From a virus: a stretch of 61,496 bases of DNA. Positions 1-61,496 of this stretch are shown piece by piece. The stretch lies in the UHGV virus genome UHGV-1354897. The stretch is one strand, 5' to 3'. Position 1 is the stretch's first letter. Every line of letters begins with the position of its first letter. The notes below the pieces were generated by a model. That model ran no database searches, was not told the origin of the DNA, and saw only the letters and a program-made list of their open reading frames with translations. A program made the translations under genes and the position numbers.

Positions 1-54
1 CCATAAACTCGTCAAATAATACCAATAGGTACTATATACATTAATAATAAATCC
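1..54. repeat. terminal direct repeat, left copy (identical to 61437..61490)
   Basis: Exact 54-nt identity between window start and end; sequence diverges at position 55. Confidence 0.8.
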
Positions 55-123
55 TTATTTTATATATATTTATAGTTATTATTTACTATTAGTTTAATTA
101 TATTTGTTTTAGTTAGTTGACTG

Positions 124-441
124 AAAGTTTATAAGTTTATAGGGAGCGAGCCAACCGAGATTTCATAAAATGCATAGTATAGTGGTATAGTGGCATTCAC
201 TATGTTTCACTACTACTACTAATTCTTTGTTTGAAAACGGGGTAATAAGGGGAAAACCGTAAACTTATAAACTTTGCTCTGTGTCAAAAATAAAATTAGT
301 GAATAGTGGAATAGTGGTTTATAGTGGCAAACTTTTATAAAGCCAGTAACGGCGCACTATACACATTTTGCCCACTATGTACGCCACTAAGCACTATATT
401 AAAACAATCCTTGCAAATAGCTAATGTCTGTTTTATAGTGG
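124..441. repeat. iteron-like array of (A/T)ATAGTGG octamers in both orientations, bracketed by a 16-bp inverted repeat
   Basis: TATAGTGG at 178..185, 186..193, 320..327, 434..441; AATAGTGG at 302..309 and 310..317; reverse copy CCACTAT at 372..378; inverted repeat AAAGTTTATAAGTTTA (124..139) vs TAAACTTATAAACTTT (260..275). Confidence 0.6.
411..439 (+). promoter_or_regulatory. sigma70-like promoter candidate (TTGCAA, 17-nt spacer, TATAGT)
   Basis: -35 at 411..416 and -10 at 434..439, followed by RBS AGGAGG and ATG at 467. Confidence 0.4.
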
Positions 442-466: not shown

Positions 467-1210
467 ATGAGCGAAGAAACTATCACATCCGCACCATTAA
501 CATCTAAAACTGTGGTTAAAGATCTGTGTTTTGCTGCGTGGGTTGTGCAAGCTTGCTCGCAGTTGCGCGGTGCGCCAACCAAATCACAGGCGCTTGCTAT
601 GGTGGAGGATTACTTCAACGAAGATGTGGAACAGCCTGTTAAAAAAGCTGTAAGACAAAAAGCGGGAAAGCTGGATGCAGAACGGGCGGCTTTCCTTGCA
701 TGGGTTAGCGATAAGCTGGGACATGAACTGGATGCCAAAGAGCTTCGCAGCTATACGGGCAAATTCAATTACCACATGGGCAAGGGTAACGACCCATATG
801 AAGAAGCATTTAAGGTAAAAGAAGATAAGGGTAAGGCGGGGCGCAAGGAAAACGTCGAGCTTAAAGCATGGATAGAGCGCCAAGCCTTGCTCAAAGGGGA
901 TCCTCTGACAGATAAGGAAGCGGATAAATTGACACATCGCTGGTACAGGATGCGCCGGAGCGGCGATGTTCGGGACTGGGATAATCGCGGTCGCTGGCCT
1001 ACGTGTTCCCTGCACCATTACGAAACCGCTACCGCTATCCGTGTCAAGCTTGGCGCTCATTGGGTAGACCTTGCACTATACAGGGATGCTGAACAGGCTA
1101 AAAATATTCTTCCGAACATTGATAATTGGCTTATTAGCTTAAGACAGGGAAGGGAGCCGCAGGACGTTATGTTAGAAGTTAGTAACCATATTATCACAAC
1201 TCCGCAATAA
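467..1210 (+). CDS. hypothetical protein, first gene downstream of the iteron-like array
   Basis: 247-aa ORF with AGGAGG RBS; no motif recognised. Confidence 0.6.
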   Translation: MSEETITSAPLTSKTVVKDLCFAAWVVQACSQLRGAPTKSQALAMVEDYFNEDVEQPVKKAVRQKAGKLDAERAAFLAWVSDKLGHELDAKELRSYTGKFNYHMGKGNDPYEEAFKVKEDKGKAGRKENVELKAWIERQALLKGDPLTDKEADKLTHRWYRMRRSGDVRDWDNRGRWPTCSLHHYETATAIRVKLGAHWVDLALYRDAEQAKNILPNIDNWLISLRQGREPQDVMLEVSNHIITTPQ

Positions 1211-1485: not shown

Positions 1486-3828
1486 ATGGAACTGTTTCCC
1501 GCTGAAATTAAAGCTTTCCCACAATGGGCGGTCGCCGATGCGGATAAAAAGCCTCTTGTATGGGACAACGATATTGGACGTTTGATGGCGGCGGACGTTA
1601 CCGATCCGGATATGCTTATGACGTTTGAAGCTGCCAAAGGTTGCGCCGCGCATTTCAACAAACCTTATATTGGCTTTGTGCTTACTGCACAAGACCCGTT
1701 CACCTGCATCGATCTGGATGTGAAGAACGCGACCAATGAACCTGATCCCAAGAAGCACACGACGCCGGAACAGTTGCGCCGCTTCGAACAGATCATGACT
1801 GCGTTCGATACTTACACCGAAGTAAGTCGCTCAGGTTTGGGTGTCCACCTGTGGTTAAGAGGTAACATCGGTAAAGGTCGCCGACGTGATGGTGTCGAGG
1901 TTTATAGTCAGGAGCGTTTTATTATCTGCACGGGCAATCCTGTTTATAACAAACCAGTTGCAGAACGTGATCATTATCTTACTATGCTTGTGAATGAAAT
2001 TGATCTTCAGCGCAAGACATATGAAATTGAACTGGTAGAAAAAGATCCGGTAGAAGACGATGCGACTATTCACCAGCGAGCACTTGAAGCGGACAACGGG
2101 GATAAGTATGCACGCCTATTCAATGGCGAATGGGTTGAAATGGGATTCCCTTCCCAGTCTGAAGCAGACCTTGCCCTTATTTCTATGTATGCATTCTACA
2201 CAGAAAGTAATGAGCAATGCCGTCGTCTGTTCCGTTACAGTGCACTGGGCAAACGTGAGAAGGCTAATAAGAACAATGTTCATATTGACCGTTGTTTGCG
2301 CATGTGCCGCGGTCGTATGGAGCGTGAGCGCATTGCCCAGGAAAACGTAGCGGCGCTGGCGCGGGATTACGCTGCTCGTATGCAAGCCGCACACAGTGCA
2401 ATGCAGCAGGTAACGGAAATGCCTGTGATTGTCGAAACAACACAGGGGCAGACAGTAGTTGCGGAAAGTACATCCATTGATGCAACAGCTATTGACTGGC
2501 CACCGGGACTCGCTGGGGAGCTTGCGAAGTACATCTACAAAGCATCCGTCCGACCAGTAAAAGAAATCTCTATTGTGACTGCGCTCGGCTTTATGGCTGG
2601 GGTATGCGGGAAAGTATGGCAGATTCCGCAATCCGGTCTTAATGGTTATTTTGTCTTAATTGCTCGTTCTGGTGTTGGTAAAGAGACGTTGAACAGTGGG
2701 CTGTCTAATATAGTTAGCCAGATTCAGGACCAGTTTCCGCAGATTCATAGCTTTGTATCTTTTGACAGATGCGCTTCTGGATCTGCACTGCGTAAATCTT
2801 TTGCAGACAAACAATCTTTTATCAACTTGAACGGTGAGTTTGGTAAGATTATCAAAGCAATGGCAACGGCTCCAGCAGGATCGCCGATGCAAAGTTTCAA
2901 GAATGACCTTACCGATGTTTATCAAAAGTCCGGTCAGATGTCTATCGTTGGTGGTATGTCTTATTCTGATAAGGCTAATAATACTGAAGCTCAACAAGGT
3001 GTGGCATATAGCATCATGGGCGAAACGACACCGGATACGTTCTTTGAAGCATTAACCCGTGAAATGATGGAGGACGGATTCTTATCCCGTTTCCATGTTG
3101 TACGCTATGAAGGTGATCGACCACCTTTAAACAAAAATCAGCAGACTACAATGGATCAGCATTTGAAGGACATGGTGTGCCATCTTGTTAACCACACTTT
3201 AGTAACAATGGCAAAGCATCAGAGTATTGAAGTACAGTTTAGCCCGGATGCGGAAACATTATGCGATCAGTTTAACGATGAATGTGATCGCAATATTAAC
3301 GCAACCAAAGACGAAGCGATCCGTCAGCCGTGGAACCGTGCTCACCTGAAGGTCTTGCGACTTTCTGCCTTGTTAGCTGTGGGTGAGAACTGGATCAATC
3401 CGGTGGTACAAACCTATCATGTGCAATGGGCTTTGGACTTCGTGCGTCATGGGCAGGATATTATTATGAAGGAATGGCATAGCGGAGGCATTGGGACTAA
3501 TGATGAAGCTCGTATCCGTACTATGTGTCAGGTCTGTGTGAATTATCTAACTAAAGACTGGGTGAAAGTTAAACGTGTAGATTTGCGCAAAGAAGGTATT
3601 ATCACGCGGGGTGATATTACTACGCGTCTTGCAAGTAAGTCCGCGTTTAAAAACTATCATCACGGATTATCCGCTGCAATCGAGTCTACAATCAAGGAGA
3701 TGGTTGCTATGGGTGCACTTGTTCCGGTAACACGGGAGGAGACTATTAAACTGGGATTTACTGGGGCAGCTTGGCGCATTACGCAAGATGTTGAAGGAAT
3801 TATGGCAAACTTAGGTGAAGAGGAATAA
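1486..3828 (+). CDS. DNA primase-helicase (AEP prim-pol N-terminal domain plus P-loop NTPase)
   Basis: AEP motifs CIDLDVKN and SGLGVHLWL; Walker A-like ARSGVGKET; 780 aa. Confidence 0.75.
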   Translation: MELFPAEIKAFPQWAVADADKKPLVWDNDIGRLMAADVTDPDMLMTFEAAKGCAAHFNKPYIGFVLTAQDPFTCIDLDVKNATNEPDPKKHTTPEQLRRFEQIMTAFDTYTEVSRSGLGVHLWLRGNIGKGRRRDGVEVYSQERFIICTGNPVYNKPVAERDHYLTMLVNEIDLQRKTYEIELVEKDPVEDDATIHQRALEADNGDKYARLFNGEWVEMGFPSQSEADLALISMYAFYTESNEQCRRLFRYSALGKREKANKNNVHIDRCLRMCRGRMERERIAQENVAALARDYAARMQAAHSAMQQVTEMPVIVETTQGQTVVAESTSIDATAIDWPPGLAGELAKYIYKASVRPVKEISIVTALGFMAGVCGKVWQIPQSGLNGYFVLIARSGVGKETLNSGLSNIVSQIQDQFPQIHSFVSFDRCASGSALRKSFADKQSFINLNGEFGKIIKAMATAPAGSPMQSFKNDLTDVYQKSGQMSIVGGMSYSDKANNTEAQQGVAYSIMGETTPDTFFEALTREMMEDGFLSRFHVVRYEGDRPPLNKNQQTTMDQHLKDMVCHLVNHTLVTMAKHQSIEVQFSPDAETLCDQFNDECDRNINATKDEAIRQPWNRAHLKVLRLSALLAVGENWINPVVQTYHVQWALDFVRHGQDIIMKEWHSGGIGTNDEARIRTMCQVCVNYLTKDWVKVKRVDLRKEGIITRGDITTRLASKSAFKNYHHGLSAAIESTIKEMVAMGALVPVTREETIKLGFTGAAWRITQDVEGIMANLGEEE

Positions 3829-3855
3829 ATAAAGGGCCTTTCGGCCCTTTATTGT
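3829..3855. terminator. bidirectional intrinsic terminator
   Basis: Palindromic hairpin AAAGGGCC-TTTC-GGCCCTTT with flanking A/T runs, between convergent genes. Confidence 0.7.
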
Positions 3856-4079
3856 TAGTTGAGATAGTAATCGTCGACGTCGTACCTTGCCATAATTTCG
3901 GATGCTTCCGCTGCACTTTCCGCTTCTTCATAAGCTTGCTCAGCGTCGTCATAAGTACCGTAATACATCCAACCTTCACCCATTGGACGGATATATGCTT
4001 CAAATTTGCCAGTACGCGGGTGACGTACAACTTTATAATCCGCGCCCATTGTGCTATATACTTTATTCAGCATGACCAT
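3855..4079 (-). CDS. hypothetical small protein on the opposite strand within the early block
   Basis: 74-aa ORF with GGAGG RBS; acidic C-terminal half; ends at the bidirectional terminator. Confidence 0.6.
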   Translation of the reverse strand: MVMLNKVYSTMGADYKVVRHPRTGKFEAYIRPMGEGWMYYGTYDDAEQAYEEAESAAEASEIMARYDVDDYYLN

Positions 4080-14331: not shown

Positions 14332-14826
14332 ATGTACGTCCTGATTGATACAGATAAATTTGAACTCTTGGCAAAGCATCCCAATTGGCTGACACTACAC
14401 CAACTTGGAATTATTTGTTGCCCTGAGTCAACACTGGTGACACCAGTAGACGATTTACATGATCTTGAAGATGTTGATCTTCAAATGCTTTATATTAACT
14501 TGACAGAAAACTTAGGAGCTGCACCTTATGAACGGGAAATCGTTGAGCGCATTTTGTTTGATTACTTTACGCAACTTCCAGAAACAATCCTGGATCACGC
14601 CCAAATCAGCGCACAAGCCGAATTCTGTGTGGAATACGATATCCAAGGCTTTTGCTCACCTCAAATTGGGCAATACGTTCCGTCAATGGATGAAGGACTT
14701 TGGAAACCTGCCCGTGCCAAATACGATGCTGAACGGGAGGGTGGTATTATTTCCGGTGCCAGGGTCGTTTGTGAGCAACCCGCATTGCAAGCCGCATGGA
14801 CACCGGGCAGAGGGGCAAAGAGTTAG
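14332..14826 (+). CDS. hypothetical protein
   Basis: 164-aa ORF. Confidence 0.6.
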   Translation: MYVLIDTDKFELLAKHPNWLTLHQLGIICCPESTLVTPVDDLHDLEDVDLQMLYINLTENLGAAPYEREIVERILFDYFTQLPETILDHAQISAQAEFCVEYDIQGFCSPQIGQYVPSMDEGLWKPARAKYDAEREGGIISGARVVCEQPALQAAWTPGRGAKS

Positions 14827-14838
14827 TAAGTTCTAAGC

Positions 14839-14866
14839 TTGATCAAAAATATTTTTAAAAATATTC
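14839..14866. promoter_or_regulatory. A/T palindrome (AAAAATATTTTT followed by AAAAATATT), candidate operator/promoter element
   Basis: Perfect self-complementary dodecamer just upstream of the Ala/Lys/Glu-rich gene. Confidence 0.35.
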
Positions 14867-14953
14867 AGATAAGGGGTTGCGTGTCACAAAATCCTTTGGT
14901 ACATTTAACCCCGTTGGTAACAAACGAACCCATAACAATTCGGAGTGAAGAGA

Positions 14954-15757
14954 ATGAGCAACATTGAAGACAAAAAAGCTGCTGCCGCAGCCGCTGCTGC
15001 CGCCGCTGCAAAATCTGCTAAACCTGCAAAGAAAGAAGCTACTGTGAATGATGCAGAAGCTAAGAAAGCCGCAGCCGCTGAAGCTGCACGCGTAGCAAAA
15101 GAGAAAAAAGAAGCAGAGAAAAAAGCTGCCGCTGAAAAGAAACAAGCTGAAATCCGCACTGAAGCGGAAAACAAATTCAATGCGATTGCTAACGCTGCTG
15201 AAATCCTGAAAAACTCTTTGGCTACCGTCACCGACGAAAGCACTGTTGAACAGATCACGGAAGCGGAAACTCAGGGATCTGCAAACCTGAAGACCATTAA
15301 AGAAGCTCTGAAAGAGCTGAAAGCTGTCGTTAAGAAGTCTAAAGGTGAAGACCTGTCCGGTGCTGTAACTTCTGCTCAGGGCCTGGTGGATGGTCTGGAA
15401 GCTACTATTAAAGGCTTCAAAGACAAGATCCGTGCTGCAAAACAGGCAGAAAAAGAAGCGGAAAAAGCGCGCGCTAAAGAGCTTCGTGAGAAAGAAAAAG
15501 AAGCTAACCGTATGCCGGAACAGAACGGTGTTCGTCGTCCACAACCGGAAACTTCCTGCGGTCGTGCCTGGGCTCTGATGGACCAGATTAGCGCTACGCT
15601 GGGTCAGCCTGCTCCGATCTCTTATGTTCTGAACCTGGCTGGTCGCCATGGTCTGAACGAAGATACCATTAAAACTCAGTATGCACGCTGGAAGAAATTT
15701 AATGGTGTGACTGGTCGCGTACCTGTACCCGTACCGGAAGCCCTGAACGGCTTGTAA
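14954..15757 (+). CDS. Ala/Lys/Glu-rich low-complexity protein with a conserved C-terminal domain (paralog of 60060..60674)
   Basis: GGAG RBS before ATG at 14954; run of 12 consecutive Ala codons; C-terminus aligns with the 60060..60674 product. Confidence 0.65.
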   Translation: MSNIEDKKAAAAAAAAAAAKSAKPAKKEATVNDAEAKKAAAAEAARVAKEKKEAEKKAAAEKKQAEIRTEAENKFNAIANAAEILKNSLATVTDESTVEQITEAETQGSANLKTIKEALKELKAVVKKSKGEDLSGAVTSAQGLVDGLEATIKGFKDKIRAAKQAEKEAEKARAKELREKEKEANRMPEQNGVRRPQPETSCGRAWALMDQISATLGQPAPISYVLNLAGRHGLNEDTIKTQYARWKKFNGVTGRVPVPVPEALNGL

Positions 15758-15782
15758 TATCAAAACATATCACGTTATAATG

Positions 15783-15826: not shown

Positions 15827-16534
15827 ATGAATATTAATCAACAAGCTCCCGAGTCTCGTTCTAAAGAAAACGATATGTATTTAGACGTGCATTCGGTATT
15901 CTCTACCATTCAGGGTGAAGGTCCATTCTGCGGTCAACCTGCGGTATTTGTGCGCCTTGCTGGATGTAACCTGCAATGCCCGGGCTGCGACACGGATTAT
16001 ACTGTTGGTCGTTCTCTTTACCACATTGTTGATATCATGCGTTTAATCGAAAGCCGTAAGCTGGAATCTGGCAATAGCACCTCACTTGTGGTTATCACTG
16101 GGGGCGAACCATTCCGCCAGCAAATTAACCCGTTTATTGAACAACTGTTATCACGCGGGTATCTTGTGCAGATTGAAACGAATGGGTCTATGCCTTTACC
16201 TAAGAACTTTTCCCAGCTACCTGTCATTGTATGCAGTCCTAAGACTTCAAAAATTCATCCTACTGTGCTGTACCGAGCAAACGCATTTAAATATGTGCTT
16301 AAAGCGTGCTGTGTAAACGTGGAAGACGGTTTACCGCTTCAGGCATTAGATCATCAAGCTACGCCATTTATCGCTAGACCTCCGAAGGGGTTCAAGGGTA
16401 AGATATATTTACAGCCAATGGACGAGCAGGATGAAGATCTTAACCACAGTAACATCCAAGCGGTTGTCCAAAGCTGTATGAAACACGGGTACACGTTGCA
16501 GCTTCAGGTTCACAAATATATCGGGGTGGAATAA
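15827..16534 (+). CDS. queE: 7-carboxy-7-deazaguanine synthase (radical SAM)
   Basis: QueE-like N-terminus FSTIQGEGPFCG and cysteine cluster CNLQCPGCDT. Confidence 0.8.
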   Translation: MNINQQAPESRSKENDMYLDVHSVFSTIQGEGPFCGQPAVFVRLAGCNLQCPGCDTDYTVGRSLYHIVDIMRLIESRKLESGNSTSLVVITGGEPFRQQINPFIEQLLSRGYLVQIETNGSMPLPKNFSQLPVIVCSPKTSKIHPTVLYRANAFKYVLKACCVNVEDGLPLQALDHQATPFIARPPKGFKGKIYLQPMDEQDEDLNHSNIQAVVQSCMKHGYTLQLQVHKYIGVE

Positions 16535-17924: not shown

Positions 17925-18044
17925 TCTTACCGCGAAAACCGCACCGCTAGCGCATTGTTTAGGGTGCGGGAACCCAACTATACTACTAAACCTTTTAAAC
18001 CCAACAACCAGCGAATAACGCTGTTAAAACTGGAGAACAAAAGT

Positions 18045-18524
18045 ATGAAATTTATCGTTGCTTATCTGGCTGCAATTACATTCGTAAACCTGGGCTTTTC
18101 CTACCTTCCAATGCTCAATACGCCTCTTGGCGTGGTCCCGATGATGGCTTTCTTTGTAGGTATTATCTTTGTGTTGCGTGACTACGCACAGCGTAACGCT
18201 GGTAAAGGCGTTATCCCTGCAATGATTGTGGGTTGCATCCTTAGCTGGGTATTTGGGGATCCTGCTGTTGTAGTTGCATCCGTTGCATCCTTTGCTCTTA
18301 GCGAGTTTGCGGACTATGCGGTATACACGATTACTAAGAAGCCGTTTCATCAACGTGTATTTATTAGCTCTTTGGTAGCTGTACCGATTGACTCCATTGT
18401 GTTCTTAAGTATTATAGGTATTGTTAATCCGGGATCAATGGTAGCAATGAGCTTAAGTAAGTTCACAGCATCTGCTATTCTTTGGGTTGTTTACGAAGTT
18501 CATTCACGTACAGCGAGAGCGTAA
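18045..18524 (+). CDS. putative queuosine-precursor transporter-like membrane protein (YhhQ/DUF165-like)
   Basis: Multi-pass hydrophobic protein directly after queC; family assignment from context and general resemblance. Confidence 0.45.
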   Translation: MKFIVAYLAAITFVNLGFSYLPMLNTPLGVVPMMAFFVGIIFVLRDYAQRNAGKGVIPAMIVGCILSWVFGDPAVVVASVASFALSEFADYAVYTITKKPFHQRVFISSLVAVPIDSIVFLSIIGIVNPGSMVAMSLSKFTASAILWVVYEVHSRTARA

Positions 18525-58494: not shown

Positions 58495-58514
58495 CTAGCG
58501 TGGCGCTGTGTGCG

Positions 58515-58673
58515 TTATAGCGCGGTTCCCCATTTCCGTTCGTGGCGCTCTGCATACCGCTGTTCCATTACTTCGTTGTATTTGCGATCCCATTTAGCAT
58601 CACATACTTCGGTTACAATTAGTGCCACCAGTGGACCAACTACCGCAACGACCATCATGATTAAAATTAACAT
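58515..58673 (-). CDS. putative small membrane protein (52 aa)
   Basis: ACGGAGG RBS before ATG at 58673; hydrophobic N-terminus MLILIMMVVAVVGPLVALIV. Confidence 0.4.
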   Translation of the reverse strand: MLILIMMVVAVVGPLVALIVTEVCDAKWDRKYNEVMEQRYAERHERKWGTAL

Positions 58674-58729
58674 TTTGTACCTCCGTATTTGGTTGATGTG
58701 TGTAGTATCCACCAGACCGATCATGTTGT

Positions 58730-58873
58730 CTAGGCATTTTGTGCTATTAATTGCGCGTAGAACTCGCGCCCTGTCTGCATAGCCTGCGCCCATGTAGTCT
58801 CTTCGTACTCCATGCGCATGACCTGCAATAATAACGCGTGCTGTGCGCGTGTAAGCGTGTATTTGCGTGACAT
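58730..58873 (-). CDS. putative small protein (47 aa)
   Basis: Hand-translated ORF MSRKYTLTRAQHALLLQVMRMEYEE... with GAGG RBS; below ORF-track cutoff. Confidence 0.3.
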   Translation of the reverse strand: MSRKYTLTRAQHALLLQVMRMEYEETTWAQAMQTGREFYAQLIAQNA

Positions 58874-58874
58874 G

Positions 58875-59024
58875 TTAATATACCTCTACCAGTTTAACGA
58901 TGGCGCTAAAATCAGCGATTCCAAGTTGCATCTCTGAGCGGACGAAACCTTCTGCGGCTGCACGGTTCGGAGCTTTAACGTCTCCAATGTAGTTACCGTA
59001 GTACATGACTTTAAACTTTCTCAT
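58875..59024 (-). CDS. putative small protein (49 aa)
   Basis: Hand-translated ORF MRKFKVMYYGNYIGDVKAPNRAAAEGF... with GGTGGAGG RBS; stop coupled to the next start. Confidence 0.35.
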   Translation of the reverse strand: MRKFKVMYYGNYIGDVKAPNRAAAEGFVRSEMQLGIADFSAIVKLVEVY

Positions 59025-59247
59025 TTTATTTTCCTCCACCTTTCGGCTTTATCTTTCCTTTGACTATATAGTACGCCATGACTTGATCTATGTCTAGGCC
59101 AAACGTGGCATTTTAGCGTAGCGTTGCTGCAAAGCTGTAGATGCAAAACAATTCTAAAATAGCACTTTTGGCCTATTCAATATCACGATGCAAGGCTATT
59201 ATTACTTCAACAAAGCAATACTGCTTAACCACATTAAGGGTTACATC

Positions 59248-59400
59248 ATGGAATTCAAATTAGTGGAACTCGAGTCCGGTAAAATAGCTGGTTATGTATC
59301 TGCCCCAAGCTGGGAGGAGGCTGAAATCTTCTTAATGGGTCAGTTCGATATGTACATTAGCGACATCTACAAGGAATACGATTTAGTCCAAATTAAGTGA
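59248..59400 (+). CDS. small acidic protein (50 aa), first gene of the rightward block
   Basis: AAGGGT RBS before ATG at 59248; Glu/Asp-rich. Confidence 0.5.
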   Translation: MEFKLVELESGKIAGYVSAPSWEEAEIFLMGQFDMYISDIYKEYDLVQIK

Positions 59401-59441
59401 TTTATATCTTGCCTAGTTGATCCAACTGGGCAATAATAAGT
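59398..59441 (+). repeat. 44-nt intergenic element, copy 1 (TGATTTATATCTTGCCTA...TAATAATAAGT)
   Basis: Starts on the TGA stop codon; contains an imperfect hairpin; near-identical flanks shared with 59971..60014. Confidence 0.6.
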
Positions 59442-59469
59442 CAACTTAAACAAAACGAGGATATACATC

Positions 59470-59973
59470 ATGGCTACCAAACTAATTGGCAAGGGTGCTT
59501 TCACTAAAGCATACCTTCTGGATTCAGGTCGCGTACTTCTAAAATCTTGCGACCCTATTAAAGAATGCATGGCGTGGGGATGGTTTCCTGAGCATGAATT
59601 ATTTCCCCATGTCACAATGATAGACACAGGAGTCTACGAAATGGATTATTATCCTCGTGTTCGCAGCTTAAAGAGCGCTTTACAACCTGAGCAATACGCA
59701 CTCTATAAACAACTCCGCAGCTTGTGCGCAGGGTTAGAGATGCCGCGTAATACATATGACAACTATAGCTATCTATATGATGTTTTCAGTAATAGCGACC
59801 TGGCCCAAGACATTAAAGATGTGCTCCTGGAAGCTTTGGATGCTTGCGCTAATATTGGTCCGCAAATGTGGTTTGAAATCAGTCCTCGCAATGTGGCGGT
59901 AAAAAACGGAAAACTTGTTTTGCTGGATGTTTTCTTTTGTACACAAGCTCTAAAGAATATCAGAAATAGTTGA
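59470..59973 (+). CDS. minimal protein-kinase-like protein (T7 gp0.7-like)
   Basis: Gly-rich loop LIGKGAFTKAY, candidate Lys in RVLLKS, catalytic-loop-like ISPRNVAVKNGKLVLLDVFF; only 167 aa. Confidence 0.45.
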   Translation: MATKLIGKGAFTKAYLLDSGRVLLKSCDPIKECMAWGWFPEHELFPHVTMIDTGVYEMDYYPRVRSLKSALQPEQYALYKQLRSLCAGLEMPRNTYDNYSYLYDVFSNSDLAQDIKDVLLEALDACANIGPQMWFEISPRNVAVKNGKLVLLDVFFCTQALKNIRNS

Positions 59974-60014
59974 TTTATATCTTGCCTACTTCAACTTAGT
60001 AGGTAATAATAAGT
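59971..60014 (+). repeat. 44-nt intergenic element, copy 2
   Basis: TGATTTATATCTTGCCTACTTCAACTTAGTAGGTAATAATAAGT; same flanks as copy 1, different central hairpin. Confidence 0.6.
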
Positions 60015-60059
60015 ACAACTTAGCAAGACTACTAAACAATCCAACAGAAGGAATATACC

Positions 60060-60674
60060 ATGTCTAAAGTAACCCACCGCGAACAGGATAAAATGCGCTA
60101 CACCATGAAAACGAATGCACGCCGCGCTCTGAAGACCCGCTGGGGCCAGGTTGCACGCGATGCACACGAACAGCTTATCCATCAGGACGACATTGGTTTT
60201 TACATTATCGAGAAGGAAGTCCTTCAGGTGCTGCGCGATCACGAAAAAGCGCAACAGCCGGAGCACAAAGTCCCGGCACCGACCGCCGCGCCAGCTGCCA
60301 GCGTCTCGGTACTGCGCCCGATGGTAAATCCGGAAATTGTCAAAAGCTGCCTCGAAGCTCTGGAGCAGGAGGAAGAGAAAGATATGAAACATGCAAAAGC
60401 TGCCACGCAGGTTTCTGAAATCAAAATCGAAGAGCCAAAAGCTGCCGCGCCAAAACAGGATGTAAAAGCTGCTCGCTGTGATTTCAAAAATGGCGCTCGC
60501 AAGCCTCTGAAAGGAAAAACTGCCGAAGTGTGGGCAATGGGTGACAAACTTTTAGCCGAACTGGGCCGCACGCCGGAGCTGAAAGAAATGAAAGCTGCAA
60601 TGCCTTCTTACAACGGGACGACGGTAGCCATTCAGTTCTACGCTTGGCGCAAATATAACGGCCTGGACGCATAA
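60060..60674 (+). CDS. Ala/Pro/Lys-rich protein sharing a C-terminal domain with the 14954..15757 product
   Basis: C-terminus NGARKP...EVWAMGDKLLAELGR...AIQFYAWRKYNGL aligns with NGVRRP...RAWALMDQISATLGQ...KTQYARWKKFNGV; GC-richer than neighbours by eye. Confidence 0.65.
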   Translation: MSKVTHREQDKMRYTMKTNARRALKTRWGQVARDAHEQLIHQDDIGFYIIEKEVLQVLRDHEKAQQPEHKVPAPTAAPAASVSVLRPMVNPEIVKSCLEALEQEEEKDMKHAKAATQVSEIKIEEPKAAAPKQDVKAARCDFKNGARKPLKGKTAEVWAMGDKLLAELGRTPELKEMKAAMPSYNGTTVAIQFYAWRKYNGLDA

Positions 60675-60729
60675 TCTATAACCACACTGTTCACTGACGG
60701 GCTTCTGCGGGAGCCCTAAGGATAAGAAG

Positions 60730-60906
60730 ATGCAATTAGATAGTTTCGCAACTCAATACTTAAAAGACCTTCAGCGTCGTGTGAATGAAGCACGTGCCAA
60801 AGAAGGCCTTAAACCTCTAAACCAGTCCCAGCTTGTTGGCGAATTAATCGAGCAAGCTGCCACTCAGTCAACATTATTCGTCGGCTCTGTGTTCGTAAGG
60901 AAATAA
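60730..60906 (+). CDS. hypothetical small protein (58 aa)
   Basis: AAGGA RBS before ATG at 60730; stop coupled to the next start. Confidence 0.45.
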   Translation: MQLDSFATQYLKDLQRRVNEARAKEGLKPLNQSQLVGELIEQAATQSTLFVGSVFVRK

Positions 60907-60907
60907 T

Positions 60908-61234
60908 ATGAAAAAGTTCATCCGCTCTTACACTGACATCCGAGGCTTGCGAAAAGGAACGGTTTATGAAGTTGCCGACTTCGGAAATAAAATATTGGTC
61001 CCTTATTACAATAAAGACGAAAAGCCGGTTCCAATGACCAGCGTATGCTTCACCCGCCTTATGCAGGACAAGTTCCTTGTAGAAGTGCAACCGATGCGCA
61101 AAGAAGGCACATCCGAAATCTGGTTTGTGCACCGCCAGGAACCGGATAGTATTTGGTCCGACTGGATAAGCGAAAAACTGTCGGGTATTATGTCCGACGA
61201 TACGCTAGCCCACTTCACACCTGTACAGCTCTAA
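60908..61234 (+). CDS. hypothetical protein
   Basis: 108-aa ORF with AAGGAA RBS. Confidence 0.6.
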   Translation: MKKFIRSYTDIRGLRKGTVYEVADFGNKILVPYYNKDEKPVPMTSVCFTRLMQDKFLVEVQPMRKEGTSEIWFVHRQEPDSIWSDWISEKLSGIMSDDTLAHFTPVQL

Positions 61235-61436
61235 AATACTCCCGGGCCAGCCCTCCTACTGGTCCGGTTAACCGCGCAATAAAGTCCTCCTCCAATATCT
61301 CGCGATTAAGCGCATTATAGCTTGATATACCTTCCGATCACAATAGTTCAATAAATTTCCCTCAAAAGCACTTGACTTCTCATTTTTGATCTGCATCCGT
61401 TCAGGTTTATGAAAATTTATAGAGTTTATATAATGA

Positions 61437-61490
61437 CCATAAACTCGTCAAATAATACCAATAGGTACTATATACATTAATAATAAATCC
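61437..61490. repeat. terminal direct repeat, right copy (identical to 1..54)
   Basis: Exact 54-nt match to the window start. Confidence 0.8.
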
Positions 61491-61496
61491 CCAAAC

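What the first reader, a model, noticed from the sequence alone, without database searches (positions are those of the whole stretch)
60060..60674. Second member of the paralog pair, located in the earliest rightward gene set
It carries the same C-terminal module as the 14954..15757 product but a different Ala/Pro/Lys-rich N-terminal region. It sits among the first rightward genes, next to the kinase-like gene, which suggests a host-takeover role.
Basis: seen in the sequence. Interest (0 to 1): 0.55.

Follow-up and report, generated by a model that had tools for sequence, protein, structure and literature searches.

The report
Conserved phage DNA-binding-like paralog, relocated early
This gene of an E. 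coli Seurat-like phage encodes a small basic protein with a previously unnamed helix-turn-helix-like domain, and it is one of an ancient set of related proteins found only in the phage lineage that carries one subfamily of the DNA transglycosylase DpdA, so it more likely acts on phage DNA than takes over the host.

Summary
The ORF at 60060..60674 (+, 204 aa) is real and equals gp65 of phage Seurat, annotated as hypothetical. It shares a roughly 65-aa C-terminal module with the 14954..15757 product, and these are the only two copies in the window.

The protein has three parts, not a low-complexity N-terminus plus a module. There is a conserved folded N-terminal domain with a 'SNARRALK' motif, a hypervariable Ala/Glu/Pro/Lys linker, and the basic C-module. 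The module is a beta-hairpin (NGxR[KR]P) followed by three helices. Its fold is winged-helix/HTH-like, and it matches no Pfam or NCBIfam family.

The module family is large: 2061 clusters at 50% identity. In every context I inspected it sits in siphophages that carry the queE/C/D-folE-dpdA 7-deazaguanine cluster. The commonest gene order is helicase, F-type, MYxxID protein, S-type, queE. The target is the F-type member, moved to the start of the rightward gene cluster in Seuratvirus and Nonagvirus. The paralog is the S-type.

Both genes show host-optimal codon bias. The bias is strong for the S-type and moderate, and not replicated in a second genus, for the target.

The best reading is a DNA-binding protein of the phage replication/modification module. 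The host-takeover reading and the kinase-like label for the neighbouring gene are not supported. The function has not been tested.

The parts
59964..60029 (+). Intercistronic repeat element directly upstream of the target. It begins at the stop codon of the preceding gene, folds into a two-tier hairpin, and matches a TTGCCT-17-AATAAT promoter consensus. A second copy lies at 59391-59456.
   Evidence: The direct repeat is 66 nt and 73% identical. The exact 17-mer occurs only twice in the window against 0.2 expected. RNA fold z-scores are -4.8 and -6.5, and the stem sequences differ between the two copies. The copy upstream of the ortholog is conserved in Seurat and CSP1C. Its function (promoter, processing site or attenuator) is unknown.
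60047..60052 (+). Shine-Dalgarno-like GAAGGA, 7 nt before the ATG
   Evidence: Read directly from the sequence. Seurat annotates a ribosome binding site at the same offset.
60060..60674 (+). Coding sequence of the target, 204 aa, pI 9.2. It is the F-type member of the module family and belongs to phrog_22313.
   Evidence: The antisense ORFs 59991..60392 and 60239..60571 are by-products of the GC-rich, Ala-rich coding strand. In-frame indels among orthologs fit the + frame.
60081..60254 (+). N-terminal folded domain, aa 8-65, beta-alpha-alpha-beta-beta-alpha, with the motif (Y/F)xxxSNA(R/K)RA(L/A)K; net charge +3
   Evidence: AlphaFold2 pLDDT is 91-94. Identity among orthologs is 73-98%. A profile of the domain finds it almost only in module-bearing ORFs, both early-cluster genes and first-after-helicase genes. 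No Pfam match was found.
60255..60464 (+). Variable Ala/Glu/Pro/Lys linker, aa 66-135, net charge -3, with frequent in-frame indels
   Evidence: pLDDT is below 50 for 69-90 and 104-135. Identity is 37-48% where the C-module is 96-100% identical, and ortholog lengths range from 179 to 214 aa.
60465..60671 (+). C-terminal module, aa 136-204: a beta-hairpin (KNGARKP) followed by three helices; net charge +6, pI 9.7. Family-invariant residues are R139, N144, G145, R147, P149, W158, W196 and K198.
14954..15757 (+). Paralog, the S-type member: an A/K/E-rich N-terminus, a helical middle region, and the module at about aa 183-260. It lies directly upstream of queE (15827..16534).
   Evidence: The S-profile scores 122.6 bits against 54.4 for the F-profile. 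Codon-bias z is 5.9, rank 4 of 87 genes.
14332..14826 (+). MYxxID-domain protein (phrog_7864), the third member of the conserved set. It is fused to an S-type module in other phages.
   Evidence: Fusion proteins are P0061, P0111, P0128, P0137, P0155 and P0170. In about 30 of the 44 sources with a hit the gene lies cleanly between the F and S genes, and a few more overlap a module ORF at that position. The PHROG match covers only positions 1-163 of a 242-position profile.

Best explanation
**What it is.** The gene encodes a small basic nucleic-acid-binding protein, most likely DNA-binding. It belongs to the replication / 7-deazaguanine-modification supermodule of Queuovirinae-like phages, not to a host-takeover set.

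**Proposed mechanism.**
- The C-terminal module is a three-helix HTH-like bundle preceded by a conserved NGxR(K/R)P beta-hairpin.
- It would contact DNA through the conserved Arg/Lys residues of the hairpin and through the WRK end of helix 3.
- The N-terminal SNARRA domain would provide a second contact or an oligomerisation or partner surface.
- The flexible acidic linker would act only as a tether.

**Evolutionary placement.**
- The protein is the F-type member of an ancient set of module-bearing proteins. The other members are the S-type, here 14954..15757, and the MYxxID protein, here 14332..14826.
- In most related phages these are encoded side by side between the SF2 helicase and queE.
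- In Seuratvirus and Nonagvirus the F-type gene has moved to the start of the rightward cluster, so it is probably made earlier than its partners.

**Shown:** the ORF, the paralogy, the domain architecture, the fold class, the synteny, the lineage distribution and the codon bias.

**Inferred:** DNA binding, cooperation with the S and MYxxID proteins, and early timing.
For: - **Charge.** The module has net charge +6 and pI 9.7, and the N-domain +3. The invariant residues are Arg, Lys and Trp.
- **Shared domain on different proteins.** The same module is attached to three unrelated N-terminal parts and occurs in tandem two or three times (P0029, P0031, P0032, P0060). This fits a common targeting domain for a repetitive ligand such as DNA.
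- **Extra nucleic-acid-type element.** Some F-type relatives carry a four-cysteine zinc-ribbon-like insert.
- **Synteny.** The order helicase, F, S, queE occurs in 44 of the 88 sources classified (87 fetched loci plus the window), usually with the MYxxID gene between F and S. Position-defined profiles place the target in the F lineage, 45.9 against 31.5 bits.
- **Core-gene behaviour.** The family is present in 129-155 GenBank phage records spanning many host genera. The module is 96-100% conserved where the linker is 37-48% conserved.
- **Codon bias corrected for amino-acid composition.** The target has z 3.4, rank 7 of 87. The paralog has z 5.9, rank 4. They sit among the SSB, major head and scaffolding genes.
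Against: - No binding experiment exists, and no DNA target motif was identified.
- The hairpin lies N-terminal to the helices, unlike the C-terminal wing of canonical winged-helix domains.
- In Nonagvirus JenK1 the F-type gene shows little codon bias (z 1.1, rank 17 of 69), so high abundance is robust only for the S-type.
- The Seuratvirus F-type module is the most divergent of its lineage. It has lost the conserved Cys and the terminal GR motif.
- The synteny could reflect vertical inheritance of one supermodule and not functional coupling.
Confidence: 0.45

Rival explanations
1. It is a transcription regulator. The HTH-like module would bind specific promoter-proximal sites, and the early-made F-type protein would switch on or off the next temporal class of phage genes transcribed by host RNA polymerase.
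For: Most structural neighbours are transcription regulators. The phage encodes no RNA polymerase of its own that I saw. The gene lies near the divergent control region and behind its own promoter-like element. Some GenBank records label the S-type paralog 'transcriptional activator (FtrA domain-containing)'.
Against: The 'FtrA' label is not reproduced by NCBIfam or Pfam. Three different proteins share the module, and tandem arrays exist. The S-type gene is as codon-optimised as the capsid and SSB genes, which is unusual for a regulator. No repeated operator correlated with the protein was found. The one clear iteron set, at 179-441, changes between this phage and Seurat while the module stays 97-100% identical.
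Confidence: 0.2
2. It is a protein-protein adaptor of the replisome. The module would dock on a phage or host replication protein such as the SF2 helicase, the DUF669-type SSB, the clamp or the polymerase, and the N-domains would bring in other activities.
Against: The conserved surface residues are mainly Arg and Lys, and the domain is strongly basic. Tandem repeats of the module fit a polymeric ligand better. No co-variation with any partner was tested.
Confidence: 0.15
3. It is a host-takeover or anti-defence early protein. It would bind and neutralise a host factor such as a nucleoid protein, a nuclease or a defence sensor.
For: It is the third gene of the rightward cluster next to the divergent control region in Seuratvirus, and the second in Nonagvirus JenK1. 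It has its own upstream element. Its linker is hypervariable.
Against: The gene is core, not sporadic. In most relatives it sits inside the replication module. The same family occurs in phages of Rhizobium, Synechococcus, Vibrio, Pseudomonas and Xanthomonas, which would not share a host target. The folded domains, not the linker, are under strong constraint. The supposed kinase neighbour has no support.
Confidence: 0.08
4. It is an accessory or reader of 7-deazaguanine DNA. The module proteins would recognise or organise preQ0- or G+-modified phage DNA, or help DpdA reach its sites. This would resemble the abundant SPO1 TF1 protein, which, from my own knowledge and not checked here, prefers hydroxymethyluracil DNA.
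For: Every context I inspected carries queE/C/D-folE-dpdA, and the S-type gene is usually the gene immediately before queE. In GenBank the S-type module is in 155 records and this DpdA subfamily (at least 80% query cover) is also in 155, with nearly identical genus counts. The S-type gene has very high codon bias.
Against: Phage 9g DpdA plus Gat-QueC alone modify up to about 18% of the G in plasmid DNA in E. coli (PMC6884629), so the proteins are not required for base exchange. DpdA phages of Mycobacterium, Cellulophaga and Arthrobacter are not among the module-bearing genera at tblastn sensitivity. The co-occurrence is confounded by inheritance of the whole supermodule.
Confidence: 0.12

Closest known systems
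Winged-helix / HTH DNA-binding domains of regulators such as BrxR, CapW, HxlR and LexA
   Different: No sequence-profile relationship was found with Pfam or NCBIfam. The beta-hairpin precedes the helices, where canonical winged-helix domains have a C-terminal wing. The conserved NGxR(K/R)P and (Y/F)xxWRK(F/Y)xG motifs are specific to this family.
PF18780 HNH_repeat (homing-endonuclease-associated repeat)
   Same: It is the only Pfam model that touches the module. The local pattern is similar...ELGRTP... helix ... aromatic-x-x-W.
   Different: Scores are 14.6-16.7 bits against a gathering score of 26. Only 3 of 130 family members hit at E<=1. The match covers only 33 residues.
H-NS / MvaT / Lsr2-type nucleoid proteins (architectural analogy only)
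   Same: The layout is similar: an N-terminal helical or oligomerisation part, a flexible linker, and a small basic C-terminal domain with a conserved Arg-containing loop. This comparison is from my own knowledge of those families.
SPO1 TF1, an abundant phage DNA-binding protein that prefers the phage's own modified DNA (functional analogy, from my own knowledge)
   Same: Both are phage-encoded small basic proteins. The S-type paralog has codon bias typical of abundant proteins, and the family is restricted to phages with hypermodified DNA.
   Different: TF1 is an HU-family protein, whereas this family has an HTH-like fold. A preference for modified DNA is entirely untested here.
phrog_22313 / 17772 / 21588 / 18634 / 11298 (PHROG families of unknown function)
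   Same: The target matches phrog_22313 end to end (E=2e-142). The module links all five families.
   Different: PHROGs treats them as separate families with no annotation. Their unity, the F/S split and the synteny are worked out here.

Membership tests
Module family defined here (PHROGs 22313, 17772, 21588, 18634, 11298) | A roughly 65-aa domain with R-x4-NG-x-R-(R/K)-P, an invariant Trp in helix 1, and (Y/F)-x-x-W-(R/K)-K-(F/Y) in helix 3 | tested here: met
   All motifs are present in residues 139-199. Profile E-values are 1e-29 with A5 and 2e-12 with an independent profile.
F-type sub-lineage of the module family | The module scores higher with the profile of first-after-helicase genes than with the profile of before-queE genes | tested here: met
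   45.9 against 31.5 bits. Nonagvirus and Vid5 orthologs score 82 against 46-52.
F-type sub-lineage of the module family | An N-terminal SNA(R/K)RA domain on the same polypeptide | tested here: met
   The N-domain profile hits the target at E=5e-24, and it also hits first-after-helicase genes of L074, L058, L025, L081, L067 and L035.
F-type sub-lineage of the module family | Position directly after the SF2 helicase | tested here: not met
   In this window only 60 nt separate the helicase from the MYxxID gene. The F-type gene lies about 17 kb away in circular distance, in the rightward early cluster. I interpret this as relocation.
Winged-helix/HTH superfamily | Three-helix bundle with HTH geometry | tested here: met
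Winged-helix/HTH superfamily | A beta-hairpin wing C-terminal to the recognition helix | tested here: not met
   The only hairpin is N-terminal to helix 1.
Winged-helix/HTH superfamily | Demonstrated nucleic-acid binding | not testable with these tools
   This needs gel-shift or ChIP experiments.
PF18780 HNH_repeat | Score at or above the Pfam gathering threshold of 26 bits | tested here: not met
   14.6 bits for the full protein and 16.7 bits for the module alone; 3 of 130 members hit at E<=1.
FtrA/AraC-type transcriptional activator (label used in some GenBank records for the S-type paralog) | A match to the corresponding NCBIfam or Pfam models | tested here: not met
   Neither paralog has any hit.
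Protein kinase (claimed for the neighbour 59470..59973) | A profile or sequence match to a kinase family, or to a solved kinase | tested here: not met
   Pfam, NCBIfam and PHROGs give nothing relevant. A PDB phmmer search returns only chance T-cell-receptor hits. I did not model its structure.

The most novel reading that the evidence does not exclude
The F-type, MYxxID and S-type proteins together would form a dedicated, abundant DNA-organising system that recognises 7-deazaguanine-modified phage DNA. Under this reading the shared module would be a new 'reader' domain for deazaguanine DNA, marking phage DNA for replication, transcription or protection, in the lineage whose DpdA lacks a ParB-like DpdB partner.
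Probability: 0.1. Interest if true: 0.8.

Novelty: new variant of a known kind. Interest (0 to 1): 0.45.

Why it matters
Phages with 7-deazaguanine-modified DNA are being studied intensively, but attention has gone to the que genes and DpdA.

This work shows that the DpdA lineage that includes Seuratvirus, Nonagvirus, Nipunavirus and many marine and soil siphophages always carries two or three uncharacterised proteins built on one unnamed HTH-like domain. These genes usually lie between the helicase and queE, and one of them is as codon-optimised as the capsid gene.

If they bind DNA, they are candidates for organising or reading modified phage DNA. If not, they are still a conserved, testable component of a widespread replication module. 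The result also gives a name and a boundary to a domain with more than 2000 clusters at 50% identity and no Pfam entry.

For the finding itself, it replaces a positional guess (host takeover) with an evolutionary placement.

Tried and rejected
- **Pfam, NCBIfam and PDB sequence searches** on the full protein, the module profile, the N-domain and 130-148 family members gave nothing above threshold. Designed-repeat proteins and TolA/CAF1-type hits came from low-complexity or charged linkers.
- **Foldseek against PDB** gave nothing at E<=1e-3. The afdb50 library was unavailable.
- **Rfam** on 58800-61496 found nothing.
- **Literature searches** for Queuovirinae transcriptomes, for these genes in the CAjan, iggy and 9g papers, and for the 'transcriptional activator' label in the R7M paper found nothing on function.
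- **Origin-binding initiator** was considered and rejected. The iteron cluster at 179-441 and the adjacent ORF 467..1210 differ from Seurat, while the target module does not.
- **Obligatory DpdA cofactor** was considered and rejected, because 9g DpdA plus Gat-QueC suffice in E. coli.
- **Downstream terminator:** the hairpin at 60699-60716 is not a convincing terminator (z -1.9, no T-run).
- **Codon bias as evidence of abundance** holds for the S-type in two genera but only weakly for the F-type.

Full report
**Source of the window.** The window is a complete Seuratvirus (Queuovirinae) genome.
- The tested stretch 58500-61496 is about 95% identical to E. coli phage Seurat and to many BASEL and SLUR phages.
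- Bases 1-57 repeat 61438-61491, so the record is a circular assembly opened in an intergenic region.
- Genes run rightward from about 59188 across the end of the window to about 26000. This block holds small early-type genes, primase, Sak4-like ATPase, SSB, helicase, queE/C/D, folE, DpdA, clamp and polymerase.
- Genes run leftward from 59039 to 27140, covering small genes and then the structural genes.

**Check of the observation.**
- ORF 60060..60674 (+, ATG, 204 aa) is present, with GAAGGA 7 nt upstream. It corresponds to Seurat gp65, annotated 'hypothetical protein'.
- BLASTP against the 14954..15757 product aligns the last 69 residues at 29% identity, E=1e-6. Both proteins hit phrog_21588 and phrog_18634.
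- A profile of the module finds exactly these two ORFs in the window.
- So do two profiles built only from metagenomic loci. The target scores E=2e-12 and 4e-8, and the paralog E=4e-16 and 2e-37, among 675 ORFs.
- The paralogy is therefore real, and there are two copies.
  - AlphaFold2 with a 30-sequence alignment gives two confident domains: residues 8-65 (beta-alpha-alpha-beta-beta-alpha, pLDDT 91-94) and 140-200 (a beta-hairpin plus three helices, pLDDT 87-92).
  - They are joined by a low-confidence stretch.
  - In the orthologs that are 65-68% identical overall, the N-domain is 73-76% identical, the linker 37-48% with many in-frame indels, and the module 96-100%.
  - The Ala/Glu/Pro/Lys-rich segment is the central linker, residues 66-135.

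**The module.**
- The invariant positions are R139, N144, G145, R147, P149, W158, W196 and K198.
- The domain is basic, with net charge +6 and pI 9.7.
- A domain-only model from 130 sequences has pLDDT 82.
- No Pfam or NCBIfam model reaches threshold. PF18780 HNH_repeat scores 15-17 bits against a cut-off of 26, and only 3 of 130 members touch it.
- An exhaustive profile search finds 2061 clusters at 50% identity with E<=1e-3, and 973 with E<=1e-10. They are mostly proteins of 100-350 aa with the module at the C-terminus. A few carry two or three tandem copies.
- Source names for these proteins are 'hypothetical', or are spurious TolA-type labels caused by A/E/K-rich linkers.

**Genomic context elsewhere.**
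- I fetched 74 IMG/VR loci and several GenBank contexts.
- In the commonest arrangement, 44 of the 88 sources classified (87 fetched loci plus the window), two module genes lie between the SF2 helicase and queE. These are followed by queC, queD, folE and DpdA.
- I built profiles purely by position, using 41 loci: first after the helicase = F, last before queE = S. The window's 14954 product is clearly S-type (127 against 59 bits). The target is F-type (45.9 against 31.5), as are the early-cluster genes of Nonagvirus and Vid5 (82 against 46-52).
- The SNARRA N-domain of the target recurs in first-after-helicase genes of distant phages. Some of these carry a four-cysteine insert in the linker.
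- Between F and S lies a third conserved gene with an 'MYxxID' N-domain (window 14332..14826, phrog_7864). It is found in 44 sources. About 30 are cleanly between F and S, and a few more overlap a module ORF at that position. In some phages it is fused to a module.
- The target is therefore one member of an old set of proteins that share one domain.
- In Seuratvirus and Nonagvirus the F gene sits near the start of the rightward cluster, third ORF here and second in JenK1. Only 60 nt separate the helicase from the MYxxID gene.

**Distribution.**
- In GenBank phages the S-type consensus is found in 155 records and the F-type consensus in 129.
- The window's DpdA finds 237 records. Of these, 155 match over at least 80% of its length, with genus counts almost identical to those of the module: Escherichia 41, Pseudomonas 32, Vibrio 23-24, Rhizobium 13-14.
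- The remaining DpdA phages (Mycobacterium, Cellulophaga, Arthrobacter) are not among the module-bearing genera.
- Every context I opened carries the que/dpdA cluster. These were Xanthomonas DoCa3, Stenotrophomonas Bhz54, Vibrio 1.117.O, Rhizobium RHEph04, Synechococcus Ssp-JY38 and JenK1.
- The association is strong but confounded, because all these phages share the whole replication supermodule.
- Phage 9g DpdA plus Gat-QueC alone modify plasmid DNA in E. coli (PMC6884629), so the module proteins are not needed for base exchange.

**Expression hints.**
- I corrected for amino-acid composition and used E. coli optimal codons recalled from memory.
- The S-type gene has z 5.9, rank 4 of 87. The target has z 3.4, rank 7.
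- The other top genes are SSB (z 7.9), major head protein (6.3), an unknown gene at 28126..28962 (6.0), scaffolding protein (4.0) and a tail protein (3.5).
- In JenK1 the S-type is rank 2 of 69 (z 7.1), but the F-type is only rank 17 (z 1.1).
- High abundance is therefore a robust inference for the paralog and a weak one for the target.
- Early timing rests only on position and on a promoter-like element. I found no transcriptome for this subfamily.

**Interpretation.**
- The evidence fits a DNA-binding protein acting on phage DNA metabolism together with its S-type and MYxxID relatives (confidence 0.45):
  - the basic HTH-like fold and conserved Arg/Lys residues;
  - the use of one module on three different proteins and in tandem arrays;
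  - the zinc-ribbon inserts and the core-gene conservation;
  - the ancestral position in the replication module.
- Rivals:
  - specific transcription regulator, 0.2;
  - replisome docking adaptor, 0.15;
  - reader or accessory of deazaguanine DNA, 0.12;
  - host-takeover or anti-defence protein, 0.08.
- The last is disfavoured. The gene is core across phages of unrelated hosts and is normally inside the replication module. The kinase-like neighbour is also unsupported.
- An origin-binding role is unlikely.
  - The iteron cluster at 179-441 (7 of the 9 ATAGTGG sites in the window) is replaced in Seurat by TATAGGG-type repeats.
  - The adjacent ORF 467..1210 is only 43% identical to its Seurat counterpart.
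  - The target module stays 97-100% identical.

**Novelty.**
- The gene is annotated only as hypothetical. Its PHROG families have no function, and there is no Pfam entry.
- The fold class is ordinary, so this is a new variant of a known kind.
- The value of the result lies in the conserved F/MYxxID/S set tied to one DpdA lineage, which can be tested directly.

Noticed in passing
window 179-441 and ORF 467..1210: Seven of the nine ATAGTGG sites in the whole window cluster in 263 bp of the AT-rich intergenic region upstream of ORF 467..1210. Seurat has TATAGGG-type repeats there, and its counterpart of the ORF is only 43% identical although the flanking tested stretch (58500-61496) is about 95% identical. 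This looks like a swapped iteron plus binding-protein cassette, a candidate replication origin and initiator.
   Followed up: partly
window 59391-59456 and 59964-60029: A 66-nt direct repeat (73% identity) starts at the stop codons of two consecutive genes. Each copy folds into a two-tier hairpin (z -6.5 and -4.8) whose stem sequences differ between copies, and each also matches TTGCCT-17-AATAAT. It could be a promoter, an RNA processing site or an attenuator.
   Followed up: partly
window 59095-59175: A 33-nt imperfect palindrome (76% complementary, 15-nt spacer) lies in the divergent intergenic region between the leftward and rightward gene sets. It may be an operator or a bidirectional control element.
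   Followed up: no
window 1-57 and 61438-61491: The two ends of the window are the same sequence, a terminal overlap from assembling the genome as a circle.
   Followed up: yes
L087 3432..3992 (-) against 3471..4013 (+), Pantoea phage Vid5: The annotated Vid5_gp80 is a Cys-rich antisense ORF. The real gene is on the opposite strand and is a clear ortholog of the target, with the SNARRA domain and the module. The GC-rich, Ala-rich coding strand keeps the antisense frame open, as it does in this window at 59991..60392, 60239..60571 and 14855..15763.
   Followed up: yes
window 14332..14826: The MYxxID protein matches only positions 1-163 of the 242-position phrog_7864 profile. The JenK1 homolog gp38 (240 aa) has an extra C-terminal stretch that, by my eye and without a test, looks like a degenerate module. 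The Seuratvirus protein therefore appears to be truncated.
   Followed up: partly
window 59470..59973: The 'kinase-like' neighbour (phrog_11084, unknown function) has no kinase hit in any profile library or among PDB sequences. By eye it has GKGAFTKAY...VLLK and ...PRNVAV...LLDVF motifs that recall a glycine loop, a VAIK motif and a DFG motif, but no catalytic Asp. I did not model its structure.
   Followed up: partly
window 28126..28962 (-) and JenK1 gp25: An unknown protein (phrog_9288) encoded beyond the tail-fibre genes has codon bias as strong as the major head protein: z 6.0 here and z 6.2 for hyp25 at the comparable position in JenK1. I did not test whether the two are homologous. It is probably an abundant, uncharacterised protein.
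   Followed up: no
L074 6167-6877, L025 7509-8207, L082 5601-6176: F-type proteins of distant phages carry two CxxC pairs, a zinc-ribbon-like insert, in the linker between the SNARRA domain and the module. The insert is absent from the Seuratvirus protein.
   Followed up: no
window 17955..18521: A YhhQ/Vut_1-like putative preQ0 or queuosine-precursor transporter gene lies inside the que cluster. This agrees with the yhhQ gene named among the CAjan deletion mutants.
   Followed up: no
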